Assembly (NCBI GenBank): GCA_963693365.1
Contig: CAVNZM010000005.1
Span: forward strand, 8,474,334-8,538,333
Direction: 5' to 3'
Source: Amoebidium appalachense
Taxonomy: Eukaryota > Protista > Ichthyosporea
Length of the DNA: 64,000 nt
In this document: in pieces, positions 19,501 through 22,500 of the stretch
Layout: the number at the start of each line of letters is the position of its first letter
Position numbering within the stretch: the first letter of the stretch is position 1
Notes under the pieces: model-generated
Told to the model about the DNA's origin: nothing
Databases searched by the model: none
What the model saw: only the letters and a program-made list of their open reading frames with translations
Program-made: the position numbers and the translations under genes

Positions 19501-22500
19501 CTCCCTTAGGATGTGCTCTGCCTATCATGCATACTCTTGATGTGTAGTTTGCACTCTGCATTATCATTTCCGCTATGAATGTGTACTTTATATTCGAAAA
19601 CACATTCTAACCTTCCCCCCCCCCCCCCCCCCCAGTACTGTGTGGATGACGTGCCCCCCCCCCCCCCCCCCCCCCAGGGTGGGCTCTGCTTTTTGTGCAT
19701 ATTCTTGATGTGTAGTTTGAACTCTGCATTATGTTGTCCGTTTTGAATGTGTGCTTCGTACTCTATAACTCATTCTAGCCTCCCCCCCCCCCCCCCCCCC
19801 CCCCCCCACACACACACACACACACACACACACACACACACACACACACACACACACACACACACACACACACACACACACACACACACACACACACACA
19901 CACCAACATACATGACCATACAGACCAGCTCCAGCTGGGTGGTGCCGACCCCAACCACTACTATGCCTACCCCATGGCCCCCACCAAGCAGGGTCAGCAG
20001 CAGCCCTTTGTGCTGCCCCAACAGATGCCTTTCCCCCCCTTGCAGATGCCCTTTGGTGCAGCCCCACCCTTCTGGCCTATTCCGGTATGAACACTTGCCT
20101 AGAATGGAAAGAAGCTTGTGTGTGTGTGTGGTGTGTGTGTGTGTGTGTGTGTGTGTGTGTGTGTGTGTGTAATGATGTGGCACCATTATTAGCTGCTTTA
20201 AAAGAACACTTGCTCAAAATGGATGTGTGTGCACGCGAGACTAAGGGGTCGAGATCAGATGCAGTTTATGACTTCCCCCCCCCCCCCCCCCCCCCGAGAA
20301 TGGGTTCTATGTTGCATAATGCGCTGTGTTTATGTTGCATACTTCATTGTTCGCCTATGCATGTGTCCTGCACCGTATTTCTCATCGTATATTTTGTATT
20401 TCGTACTCTGCTCCACATTCCAAACCAGCCCCCTCCTCCCAAACAAAAAGCAAAACAACAACAATAATAATAATAACAACAACAACAATAATAACACTAC
20501 CAAAAACACCACCACCGCCATTTGCACCGTACACGTTTGCGTACACACACACACACACACACACACACACACACGTACACACACACGTACACACACGCGT
20601 ACACACACGCGTACACACACACGTACACACACACGTACACACACACACACCTACACACACACGTACACGTACACACACGTACACACACACACACATACAC
20701 ACACACGTACACACACACGTACACACACGTACACACACGCGTACACACACGCGTACACACACGCGTACACACACACGTACACACACACACACACCTACAC
20801 ACACACACACACGTACACACACACACACACACGCACGCGCGCGCACACACGTACACACACACGTACACACACACGTACACACACACACACACCTACACAC
20901 ACACACACACGTACACACACACACACGTACACACACACGTATACACACACGTACACACACACACACACCTGCACCCACACACACACGTACACACACACAC
21001 ACACACACACGTACACACACGTACACACACACACACACACACACACGTACACGTACACGTACACGTACATACAGAGCAAGTGCAAGTTCTTCCAGCACGG
21101 CAACTGCAAGCACGGTGACCGCTGCAAGTACAGTCACGTGATTTCAAATGCCCCCCTCCTGCCCAGCACCTGGGCTGTGGGCCCAAGCAGGTGTGTGTAC
21201 GTGCACATGGGTGGGTGTGCGGATGTGTGTGTGTGCTTTGGGGGGGGGGGGGGGGGGGGGGGGTATTCCGGGGGCAGAGTCACTAACTGGGAAGATTGGG
21301 CCGAAAGGTTTTTTGGTGGCGGAGGCCGGGGGGGGGGGGGGGGGGGGGGGGGGGGGAAGGTGGGGGAGATGGGGGATGGGAGCGGGAGGTCAGGGGATAG
21401 GGGGTAGGCAGGGAGATTAGGGGAGAGAAATGGTGAGAGGGTTATATGGTGGGAAAGGGGGGGGGAGGGGGTGAGGTGTGTGTGTATCCTGACAAAAGGA
21501 CGGCAGCAGGCCATCCCAACGGCCAAGCCCCGGCTACCAGCCATCCAATGGTATGTGATAAACACCGCTCTGGCTTACCTAGTCTGTTCACAGCAATCAC
21601 TTTTTAGCTCGGCTTGAATTCTTGCAACTACTCGGTTTGCTGATTCGCCTGATACACCCCCTCCCCCCCCCCCCCCCCCCCCCCCTCCCCCCCCCCCCCC
21701 CCCCTAAGCACACGCGTTTGTCGCTGCACTGCATTAGTTTGCACACACATCTTCACCGTTTTGCTCACCTTGCTTGCATAAGCAACCCTGCTCGTCTTTG
21801 ATCAAGACGGGTTGACCCACCCAAGTTCAGTTGATGCTGCTGTCTGAGTTGGAGCGTCGTATATACGCGGGCTAAGGGGTCGAAACTCAGACGCAATTGA
21901 TGACTTGGGCCCTCCCTGAGGATGGCTCTGCTTATGACGCATACTGTGCGCATGGCTGATGCTGCATAGTTGAATGTTTGCCTTTGCATGTGTCCTGCAC
22001 CATGCTTCTCATCGTGTATGCGTACTTCGTACTGTGTTCCGCATTCAAACCCCCCCTGTCTTCTTTCAGAGGTGTCCTTTCAGGACAGACCACTGTGTGG
22101 AGACATCTTTACTTCCATGCAACCGGGCATGGTTGCTCTGTGTCGTGCATCTGTAAGCACACGCGTTTGTCGCTGCACTGCATTAGTTTGCACACACATC
22201 TTCACCGTTTTGCTCACCTTGCTTGCATAAGCAACCCTGCTCGTCTTTGATCAAGACGGGTTGACCCACCCAAGTTCAGTTGATGCTGCTGTCTGAGTTG
22301 GAGCGTCGTATATACGCGGGCTAAGGGGTCGAAACTCAGACGCAATTGATGACTTGGGCCCTCCCTGAGGATGGGCTCTGCTTATGACGCATACTGTGCG
22401 CATGGCTGATGCTGCATAGTTGAATGTTTGCCTTTGCATGTGTCCTGCACCATGCTTCTCATCGTGTATGCGTACTTCGTACTGTGTTCCGCATTCAAAC

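What the first reader, a model, noticed from the sequence alone, without database searches (positions are those of the whole stretch)
22226..22386. Hammerhead core strands in a permuted, multi-pseudoknot topology with covariation: candidate new ribozyme architecture
SEEN: three diverged versions (A 22226-22386 and its twin at 21.8 kb; C 28368-28520; D 54206-54060 on the minus strand) keep GUU, GUC-GAAAC and CUGA(G/U)GA-UGG. Within the CUGANGA strand the only variable base is the free N7 position. The helices covary. Stem III: UGUCUGAGU/ACUCAGACG, CAGUAUCUGAGU/ACUCGGGUACUG, AAAGUAUGGGU/ACCCAUGCUUU. Stem I (bases after GUU with bases before CUGA): GGAG/CUCC, GGG/CCC, GGGA/UCCC. Stem II-like helix ending at the C before GAAA: GACCC/GGGUC, GACCUA/UAGGUC, GACUC/GAGUC. 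Extra helix: CCCAAGUUCA/UGACUUGGG, CUCAUGUUCA/UGACGUGGG, CCUAUUGCU/GGCAUAGG. There is also a CUCGUCU/AGACGGG hairpin and an outer helix CAUAAGCA/UGCUUAUG. KNOWN: hammerhead types I-III are circular permutations of CUGANGA, GAAA, UH. Here the order is UH, GAAA, CUGANGA, which is none of them and would be missed by standard descriptors. INFERRED: stems I and II form as pseudoknots, a multi-helix junction sits between A9 and G10.1, and cleavage falls after U at 21850, 22299, 28439 and 54144. The non-contiguous A9/G10.1 link is the weak point of the model.
Basis: partly seen in the sequence, partly recalled or inferred. Interest (0 to 1): 0.93.

Follow-up and report, generated by a model that had tools for sequence, protein, structure and literature searches.

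The report
Split, rearranged hammerhead ribozyme in retroelements
An abundant repeat in an intron-rich eukaryote genome holds every conserved hammerhead base and co-varying helices in a scrambled, split order, so it is likely a self-cutting RNA of a Penelope-like retrotransposon, and the same fold is predicted in published animal Naiad elements thought to lack such ribozymes.

Summary
Observation confirmed. Four copies (plus a 5'-cut fifth) keep GUU, CGAAAC and CUGANGA. In three diverged subfamilies 93 of 93 cells pair, and 8 of 31 pairs change on both sides. What I did not find in print is the split. The RNA lies in a short repeat with a fixed 3' end on poly-C and cut 5' ends (at least 11 copies in 64 kb), like a non-autonomous Penelope-like element. 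By eye, the same split layout with unrelated helix sequences occurs in 8 of 54 published Naiad Penelope-like consensus records (ctenophore, cnidarians, octopus), and plain type CSG in 7 more. That paper reported no canonical hammerheads there. Cleavage is untested; a contiguous stem II remains possible in the window copies. New variant of a known kind; interest 0.82.

The parts
22226..22386 (+). Copy A2, complete split-SGC hammerhead-like RNA: outer helix 22226-22233/22379-22386; X 22235-22237/22373-22375; hairpin H 22240-22260 (palindromic loop); T strand (G10.1=22263) 22263-22267 with 22326-22330 (stem II); P4 22269-22278/22350-22358; stem III 22290-22298/22334-22342; H17=22299; stem I 22300-22303/22361-22364; G12-A15.1 22331-22334; C3-A9 22365-22371
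21778..21936 (+). Copy A1, tandem twin 449 nt upstream; H17=21850, G10.1=21814, G12=21882, C3=21916; one G missing after A9-U
21705..22506 (+). A-family repeat locus: 5'-truncated unit plus full unit, period 449 nt, poly-C before, between and after; lies in the sense strand of intron 21550-22953 of a PUF gene
28368..28523 (+). Copy C: G10.1=28404, H17=28439, G12=28467, C3=28501; element 28268-28610 between poly-C tracts, sense strand of intron 28207-29701 of the PUF gene
54060..54206 (-). Copy D1: G10.1=54178, H17=54144, G12=54114, C3=54074, N7=U; 5' end cut at helix X by poly-C; element ends at about 53935 in poly-C
54222..54458 (-). Copy D2: core S, G and C blocks intact (H17=54432) but X', H and T strands lost by 5' truncation
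4873..5044 (+). 5'-truncated, decayed A-type copy starting at the C block, in an intron of the ABC1-kinase gene
19493..19801 (+). Two 5'-truncated, decayed C-type copies head to tail, each ending in poly-C, in a PUF-gene intron
20222..20434 (+). Decayed A-type copy whose 5' end lies at about the predicted cleavage site
42827..42931 (-). 5'-truncated, decayed D-type copy between Arpin-like exons
47643..47762 (-). 3' tail of a D-type copy only, between poly-C tracts

Best explanation
[quoted passage not shown] Shown: the bases, the order X'-H-T-P4-S-G-P4'-C-X, the pairings and their covariation, the repeat anatomy. Inferred fold: stem III and P4 form first as one long hairpin; its loop then pairs with the T strand (stem II) and with the strand before CUGANGA (stem I) as two pseudoknots; P4 ties the far ends of stems I and II together, as the I-II helix does in type SGC; helix X clamps the A9 end next to hairpin H and G10.1, giving a five-helix junction (I, X, H, II, III) in which the insertion leaves at the place where type SGC bulges one U. 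Inferred chemistry (established for hammerheads, recalled): G12 as base, G8 as acid, cut 3' of U17 with 2',3'-cyclic phosphate and 5'-OH. Inferred role: it cuts element RNA out of read-through or intron transcripts, tandem copies give 449-nt cut-to-cut monomers that may circularise, and a Naiad/Chlamys-type reverse transcriptase supplied in trans copies the RNA from its fixed 3' end into (C)n tracts, leaving 5'-truncated and partly tandem copies.
For: Pairs: (stem II via T: 15 of 15 cells pair, 2 of 5 pairs change on both sides). In contigs of 3 public runs laid on copy C the two partners of one stem II pair vary at matched shares: 28408 T>C and 28462 A>G at 4.2/4.1%, 3.2/2.7% and 4.2/4.4% of summed depth (linkage not shown, may be the A-type state; 2 of the 3 runs may be the source; the 4th run had too few contigs). 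No listed variant at G5, A6, G8, A9, G12-A15.1, U16.1 or U17 at the 1% floor or 3% floor. Subfamilies are 66-79% alike over the ribozyme but 50-56% in 5' flank and 3' tail. Published SGC alignments read CUGANGA-U-[5 bp]-purine-[I-II helix]; here T is U-or-G, GACYY, purine, P4. Type SGC cleaves at the predicted site and needs all four helices. By eye, 8 of 54 Naiad consensus records of Craig 2021 show the same order with other helix sequences, helix X of 3-10 bp and no contiguous stem II beyond 2 bp. Repeat anatomy; that paper names (C)n targets, 5' truncation and head-to-tail non-autonomous copies for Chlamys elements. Rfam Hammerhead_1 gives a sub-threshold match starting exactly at G10.1 of copy C (14.2 bits, cut-off 34, E 2.1).
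Against: No cleavage data. Only 3 independent subfamilies in the window; X and H never vary there. A contiguous stem II (UG inserted, GGCUCU strand) also pairs 6, 4 and 6 bp in A2, C, D1, is slightly more stable than T in D1 (-7.1 vs -6.4 kcal/mol) and is canonical with one inserted U in A1. C3 and U4 do vary at about 1% in some runs. The purine after T is U in about 65% of depth in one run laid on A. Stem I is short (3-4 bp; 2 bp in the ctenophore record) and GUU is not the fastest triplet (recalled). Three intact copies lie in sense-strand introns of a spliced gene, which a fast ribozyme might harm. No reverse transcriptase or GIY-YIG domain among the 290 of 533 reading frames scanned, and no sequence link to a named element was tested. 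None of the Chlamys passages seen showed this fold by eye, although (C)n targeting is a Chlamys trait. In one tested Penelope-like element the hammerhead needed protein to cut and cutting was not needed for insertion in vitro.
Confidence: 0.7

Rival explanations
1. The active form is an ordinary contiguous type-SGC hammerhead: after A9 one or two bases (U, G) bulge and GGCUCU forms stem II; the upstream T strand and helix X are an alternative, inhibitory pairing that switches it off.
For: Pairs 6/4/6 bp in A2/C/D1, 16 of 18 cells; favoured by 0.7 kcal/mol in D1; A1 fits with a single bulged U; published SGC also reads CUGAUGA-U-G; GGCUCU is invariant.
Against: 0 of 6 pairs change on both sides and 2 cells break in C; T is favoured by 2.9 and 5.0 kcal/mol in A and C; it leaves no I-II helix; in the 8 Naiad records no such stem is possible beyond 2 bp (by eye). 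The A1 deletion is below the 3% floor in the laid runs.
Confidence: 0.1
2. The same core forms, but only in a dimer or tandem: palindromic loops join two RNAs and strands are swapped (for example C of one unit with T of the next, which restores plain SGC order around a 300-nt insertion).
For: Loop of H is palindromic in all three subfamilies with a two-base swap (UGAUCA in A and C, UGGCCA in D); the S-G linker holds 10-nt palindromes in A and C; self-dimers are 10-14 kcal/mol better than two hairpins (any hairpin gains so, no control run); 6-nt palindromic H loops also in the ctenophore and hydrozoan Naiad records; tandem copies at A and D; Penelope-type hammerheads are reported to work as dimers.
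Against: H loops of the coral, part-12 and octopus records are not palindromic (by eye); D linker has only 4-nt palindromes; every helix can be drawn within one copy; most copies are solitary.
Confidence: 0.1
3. A hammerhead-derived fold that no longer cuts (or cuts negligibly) and is kept as the RNA signal that the retrotransposon protein binds.
For: Large insertion at the core breaks the assumption that block C tolerates at most 1-2 nt; intact copies sit in sense introns; 5 of 11 copies span an uncut site; hammerhead cutting was dispensable in an in vitro Penelope-like assay.
Against: All catalytic bases are kept while N7, H17 and helices vary freely across the window and Naiad records (N7 = G or U; H17 = U or A), which is the pattern of selection on catalysis; one truncated copy starts at about the cut site (20222).
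Confidence: 0.09
4. Chance motifs in a GC-rich repeat.
For: Short motifs alone are near chance in the window (5 seen, 8 of 100 shuffles reach 5) and all collection hits were chance.
Against: 0 of 100 shuffles meet the strict descriptor; covariation; independent Naiad records.
Confidence: 0.01

Closest known systems
Type-SGC hammerhead ribozymes (HRIMA-1 and variants; Eckert, Friedrich, Weinberg, Weinberg 2023, PMC10085705)
   Same: Block order S-G-C; stems I and II as pseudoknots; U after A9; 5-bp stem II, then a purine, then a helix joining the far ends of stems I and II (P4 here).
   Different: Block C is split: the 10.x strand lies 5' of block S, helix X and hairpin H sit between A9 and G10.1, the ends open beyond X; S-G linker is 19-22 nt with a hairpin instead of about 3 nt; about 160 nt against at most 104; H17 is U; genomic DNA repeat of a eukaryote instead of metatranscriptome RNA only.
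Naiad and Chlamys Penelope-like elements (Craig, Yushenova, Rodriguez, Arkhipova 2021, PMC8557442)
   Same: Fixed 3' end, 5' truncation, partial tandems, microsatellite targets, (C)n for Chlamys; by eye the same split fold near the 3' end of 8 of 54 Naiad records.
   Different: No ORF here; host is not an animal; no sequence homology shown; the paper reports no canonical hammerhead in Naiads and only flags core or half-core strings; no split fold seen in the Chlamys passages.
Non-LTR retrozymes (Cervera and de la Pena 2020, PMC7229834; bioRxiv 10.64898/2026.07.22.740005)
   Same: Non-coding repeat of a few hundred bases with one hammerhead per unit, tandem and solitary copies, proposed Penelope-like origin.
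   Different: Those carry planar type I hammerheads and occur in animals; circular RNA is shown there and untested here.
Hammerhead types I, II, III (Rfam clan CL00010)
   Same: Identical 15-base core and three stems.
   Different: Circular permutations without core pseudoknots; no match at gathering score here.

Membership tests
Hammerhead ribozyme (class) | Core C3 U4 G5 A6 N7 G8 A9, G12 A13 A14, A15.1-U16.1, H17 | tested here: met
   5 of 5 copies with a core
Hammerhead ribozyme (class) | Stems I, II, III abut the core with covariation | tested here: met
   17 pairs in 3 subfamilies: 0 broken, 7 change on both sides
Hammerhead ribozyme (class) | Self-cleavage 3' of H17, dependent on G5/G8/G12 | not testable with these tools
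   needs in vitro assay; contigs cannot show RNA ends
Hammerhead types I/II/III | Circularly permuted order with A9 joined to G10.1; Rfam match | tested here: not met
   no CUGANGA...GAAA with a contiguous stem II in C or D; one cross-copy case from the A1 deletion; best Rfam 14.2 bits vs 34
Type SGC | 5'-3' order S, G, C | tested here: met
Type SGC | Helix joining the far ends of the stem I and stem II strands | tested here: met
   P4, 5 of 5 first pairs kept in 3 subfamilies, 2 change on both sides; layout compared
Type SGC | Block C uninterrupted (at most 1-2 nt between A9 and stem II) | tested here: not met
   covariation favours the upstream strand (vs 100); a contiguous alternative remains possible in the window copies
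Type SGC | Published descriptor limits: S-G linker 0-8 nt, G-C linker 0-15 nt, N7=U | tested here: not met
   descriptor read; H17-to-G12 distance 27-32 nt, N7=G in A and C; compared by hand, RNAmotif not run
Naiad/Chlamys Penelope-like element, non-autonomous | Fixed 3' end, 5' truncation, partial tandems, microsatellite target | tested here: met
   11 copies end in poly-C with varied 5' ends
Naiad/Chlamys Penelope-like element, non-autonomous | 3' end shared with an autonomous element encoding N-terminal GIY-YIG and RT in the same genome | not testable with these tools
   no genome held; no RT or GIY-YIG in 290 of 533 frames of the window
Non-LTR retrozyme | Tandem units of 150-450 nt with one hammerhead each | tested here: met
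   449-nt period at 21705-22506; a 427-nt contig of another run also holds the spacer
Non-LTR retrozyme | Type I hammerhead | tested here: not met
Non-LTR retrozyme | Expressed as linear and circular monomer RNA | not testable with these tools
   no raw RNA reads offered

The most novel reading that the evidence does not exclude
The Naiad/Chlamys clade did not lose its hammerheads: it carries non-circularly permuted ones, type CSG in nematodes and a spider and a new split-SGC form with a five-helix junction in ctenophores, cnidarians, octopus and this non-animal eukaryote. The split form is an active ribozyme whose core tolerates a whole domain between A9 and G10.1, and the inserted hairpin may gate cleavage by dimerisation.
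Probability: 0.6. Interest if true: 0.9.

Novelty: new variant of a known kind. Interest (0 to 1): 0.82.

Why it matters
It would break the rule behind the six-permutation scheme (block C cannot be interrupted), move non-circularly permuted ribozymes from anonymous metatranscriptome contigs into high-copy eukaryotic genome repeats, and answer why Naiad elements seemed to lack hammerheads while all other Penelope-like clades have them. It makes that question directly testable with 160-nt transcripts, implies that genome-wide ribozyme counts miss many copies, and points to a new insertion site in the hammerhead core for engineered switches. Intact copies in sense-strand introns also raise the question of how the host's splicing copes.

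Tried and rejected
Whole-genome census: no genome held. Pattern scans: metagenomes 5 hits, viral contigs 21, prokaryote genomes 120 loci fetched of about 200; none meets the descriptor with stem III >=7, so they served as decoys only. Rfam: 141 matches in the window, none a ribozyme and none at gathering score; local scans 0, 3 and 5 weak matches. Single-strand folding cannot show pseudoknots and was weak: z -3.1, -1.5, -0.1. Sequencing runs: 20 of 24 listed runs hold the A stretch (5 coded organisms, 8 studies, 6 rows possibly the source); no RNA holder listed on record. Read laying gave variant tables but no further full copies; depth is not copy number. Earlier findings of the scan: nothing in 3 look-ups. 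Host lineage: cyclin query found nothing; a PUF exon found one identical transcript-derived record and fungal proteins at 61-68% as best named relatives; lineage not determined further. A second CUGANGA-like string in the P4 3' strand (UUGAUGA in A) was rejected: not kept in C and D. A canonical type III across tandem copies was rejected: only the A1 deletion allows it. A covariance model was not built (3 subfamilies, nothing further to search). The Naiad records were read by eye and not run through the descriptor, so those counts are unscored lower bounds; the string search misses motifs broken by line ends or with a base other than C after GAAA. Hammann 2012 and Weinberg 2015 were not held; the latter is among the papers cited for variants with additional helices and may bear on novelty. 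bioRxiv supplements were closed.
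Full report
What is there. Five copies keep the whole core: A1 (H17 at 21850), A2 (22299), C (28439), D1 (54144, minus) and D2 (54432, minus), the last without its 5' part. From 5' to 3' a full copy reads: outer helix, X' (CCC), hairpin H, T strand (GACYY), one purine, P4 5' strand, stem III strand with GUU, stem I strand, a small hairpin, the partner of T ending in C, GAAA with the other stem III strand, P4 3' strand, stem I partner, CUGANGA, U, GGG (helix X), outer helix.

More than chance. The short motifs alone are near chance (5 matches, reached by 8 of 100 shuffles; 5 matches, 1 of 100). The pairings are not. A descriptor with stem I >=3, stem III >=9 and upstream stem II >=5 bp finds the 4 full copies and 0 sites in 100 block-wise shuffles; 146 decoy loci (506 kb) gave 3 loose sites, none with stem III >=7. 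On the three subfamilies 93 of 93 cells pair, 8 of 31 pairs change on both sides, and 0 of 500 shuffles reach this (three sequences only, so the number is no probability). By coordinates, stems I-III have 17 pairs: 8 invariant, 2 changed on one side, 7 on both, none broken. H and X never vary in the window. Subfamilies are 66-79% alike over the ribozyme and 50-56% in flank and tail. In contigs of public runs laid on copy C, the two partners of the fifth stem II pair vary at matched shares in 3 of 4 runs (4.2/4.1, 3.2/2.7, 4.2/4.4%); no variant is listed at G5, A6, G8, A9, G12-A15.1, U16.1 or U17, while C3 and U4 vary at about 1%.

Context. The host is an intron-rich eukaryote: Pfam finds ABC1-kinase, CCCH/PUF, cyclin and Arpin pieces, and no reverse transcriptase or GIY-YIG, in the 290 of 533 frames sent. 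A transcript-derived protein identical to the PUF gene gives 19 exons; A1, A2 and C lie in its introns on the sense strand. BLAST and nhmmer find 11 copies in the window, and more diverged look-alikes are visible. All end at a fixed 3' tail followed by poly-C; 5' ends vary; the A locus is a partial tandem with a 449-nt period. Thousands of contigs of some runs lie on these stretches (6107 in one run on A; 4152-8684 in three runs on C), which points to a large family, though depth is no copy number. Prokaryote, virus and metagenome collections gave only chance hits.

Comparison with print. The order UH, GAAA, CUGANGA is type SGC of Eckert et al. 2023 (PMC10085705; I read main-text parts 1-6 of 8 and supplement parts 1, 5, 8 of 42 plus one term search). 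They showed cleavage at the predicted site and the need for stems I-III and an I-II helix, found SGC only in metatranscriptomes, and assumed that block C (stem I strand, CUGANGA, stem II strand) is never interrupted by more than 1-2 nt. Their alignment reads CUGANGA, U, a 5-bp stem II strand, a purine, then the I-II helix. Our T strand with its purine and P4 is that second half, moved upstream. So the RNA is an SGC hammerhead opened at the A9/G10.1 bulge, with helix X and hairpin H inserted. Their descriptor would miss it. Rfam has no match at gathering score; a 14.2-bit partial Hammerhead_1 match begins at G10.1 of copy C.

The rival stem II. After A9, skipping U and G, the strand GGCUCU pairs with the same partner for 6, 4 and 6 bp in A2, C and D1, is 0.7 kcal/mol better than T in D1 and 2.9-5.0 worse in A and C, and in A1, which lacks one G, it fits with a single bulged U. 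It has no pair with a change on both sides and breaks twice in C. The window alone favours T but does not settle it.

Independent examples. Craig et al. 2021 (PMC8557442; passages, sections 9 and 10, supplement parts 1 and 9 of 59 and seven term searches) state that Naiad and most Chlamys Penelope-like elements lack canonical hammerheads, flag core and half-core strings, and name (C)n and (CA)n targets, 5' truncation and head-to-tail non-autonomous copies for Chlamys. I read all 79 places of the four strings NCGAAAC in their supplement by eye. Seven places show the full split order with unrelated helix sequences: one ctenophore record (Naiad_Bfor or Naiad_Mley by file order; II 6, P4 15, III 7, I 2, X 10 bp), Naiad_Amil, _Aacu and _Anas (I 5-6, II 6 with one mismatch in one record, P4 10, X 6), one record in part 12 (name not shown; I 6, II 6, III 6, P4 about 9, X 5, H 8) and Naiad_Obim and _Ovul (I 6, II 6, III 5, P4 5, X about 3). 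Naiad-3_Chem, read in part 9, is an eighth (I 5, II 4, III 5, P4 7-8, X 6, H 7); Naiad-1_Chem and -2_Chem, on the same page, do not show it. In five of the eight (three coral, part 12, Chem-3) X starts directly after A9, and in none can a contiguous stem II exceed 2 bp. Seven further places show plain type CSG (two part-13 nematode records, Naiad-1, -2, -3_Nbra, _Hpol, _Smim). No Chlamys passage showed the split fold. These counts (8 and 7 of 54 Naiad records) are by eye, unscored and lower bounds.

Mechanism. Shown: bases, order, pairings, repeat anatomy. Inferred: the III/P4 hairpin folds first, its loop is caught by T and by the strand before CUGANGA, P4 holds stems I and II together, and X clamps A9 beside G10.1 in a five-helix junction; chemistry as in any hammerhead (recalled). 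Inferred role: release of element RNA from read-through or intron transcripts, 449-nt monomers from tandems that may circularise as in retrozymes (PMC7229834, part 2 of 6), and copying by a Naiad/Chlamys-type enzyme into (C)n. One decayed copy starts at about the cut site, but 5 of 11 copies span it, so uncut or religated RNA is also copied; in one tested Penelope-like element cutting needed protein and was dispensable in vitro (PMC11167929, passages). The H loop is palindromic in all window copies that have it and in two of five Naiad lineages, a hint of dimer control as proposed for other Penelope-type hammerheads (PMC4209133, passages).

Novelty. Ten searches of the held library found no description of a split block C or of permuted hammerheads in Naiads. 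'type-SGC' occurs in one paper. A 2026 preprint on retrozymes and Penelope-like elements deals with type I only (parts 1-3 of 5 and passages; supplements closed). Passages of PMC13725137, PMC10162972, PMC3088659, PMC6765202 and PMC13159263 showed nothing of the kind. Hammann 2012 and Weinberg 2015 were not held, and most subscription papers are not searched, so prior mention is not excluded. Verdict: real, most likely an active split-SGC hammerhead of a non-autonomous Penelope-like element; new variant of a known kind; confidence 0.7; interest 0.82.

Noticed in passing
PMC8557442 supplement, parts 13-16: Seven nematode and spider Naiad records show type CSG hammerheads by eye; Eckert 2023 knew only two CSG sequences, from metagenomes.
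   Followed up: partly
PMC8557442 supplement, part 9: Naiad-1_Chem and Naiad-2_Chem share two other conserved, apparently structured 3' UTR motifs (the first also in Naiad-3_Chem) without a hammerhead core; possibly another RNA element.
   Followed up: no
window 16587-30373 (+): 19-exon gene for a 650-aa CCCH zinc finger plus PUF-repeat protein, identical to a transcript-derived record; best named relatives fungal at 61-68% over one exon.
   Followed up: yes
window 4873, 19493, 19641, 20222, 21705, 22154, 28268 (+) and 42931 (-): All 8 copies inside recognised genes lie on the sense strand; may follow the strand bias of poly-C in introns.
   Followed up: partly
window 26900-27010, 27160-27195, 28715-28770, 28850-28940, 29520-29640 (+): Further short insertions ending in a CATT-like tail and poly-C, two starting with a decayed C-block look-alike; probably older subfamilies of the same repeat.
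   Followed up: no
window 21923-21925: Copy A1 lacks one G after A9-U, which makes a contiguous SGC stem II possible; private change or assembly error.
   Followed up: partly
table 5c (joint 28407 to 28504): A contig in two runs joins T almost directly to its stem II partner, dropping block S, and shows a different stem III strand: a deletion derivative of a fourth subfamily.
   Followed up: no
window 1067-5495 (+), 33284-34084 (+), 41205-43811 (-), 63322-63867 (+): Exons of an ABC1 atypical kinase, an apparently single-exon Pho80-like cyclin with no close relative found, an Arpin-like gene, and a weak Sec8 match.
   Followed up: partly
window 13926-14195, 37889-38088, 55398-55464 with 61494-61560: Other short repeats (a 145-nt tandem pair, an 86-nt tandem, a dispersed 67-nt pair) unrelated to the ribozyme.
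   Followed up: no
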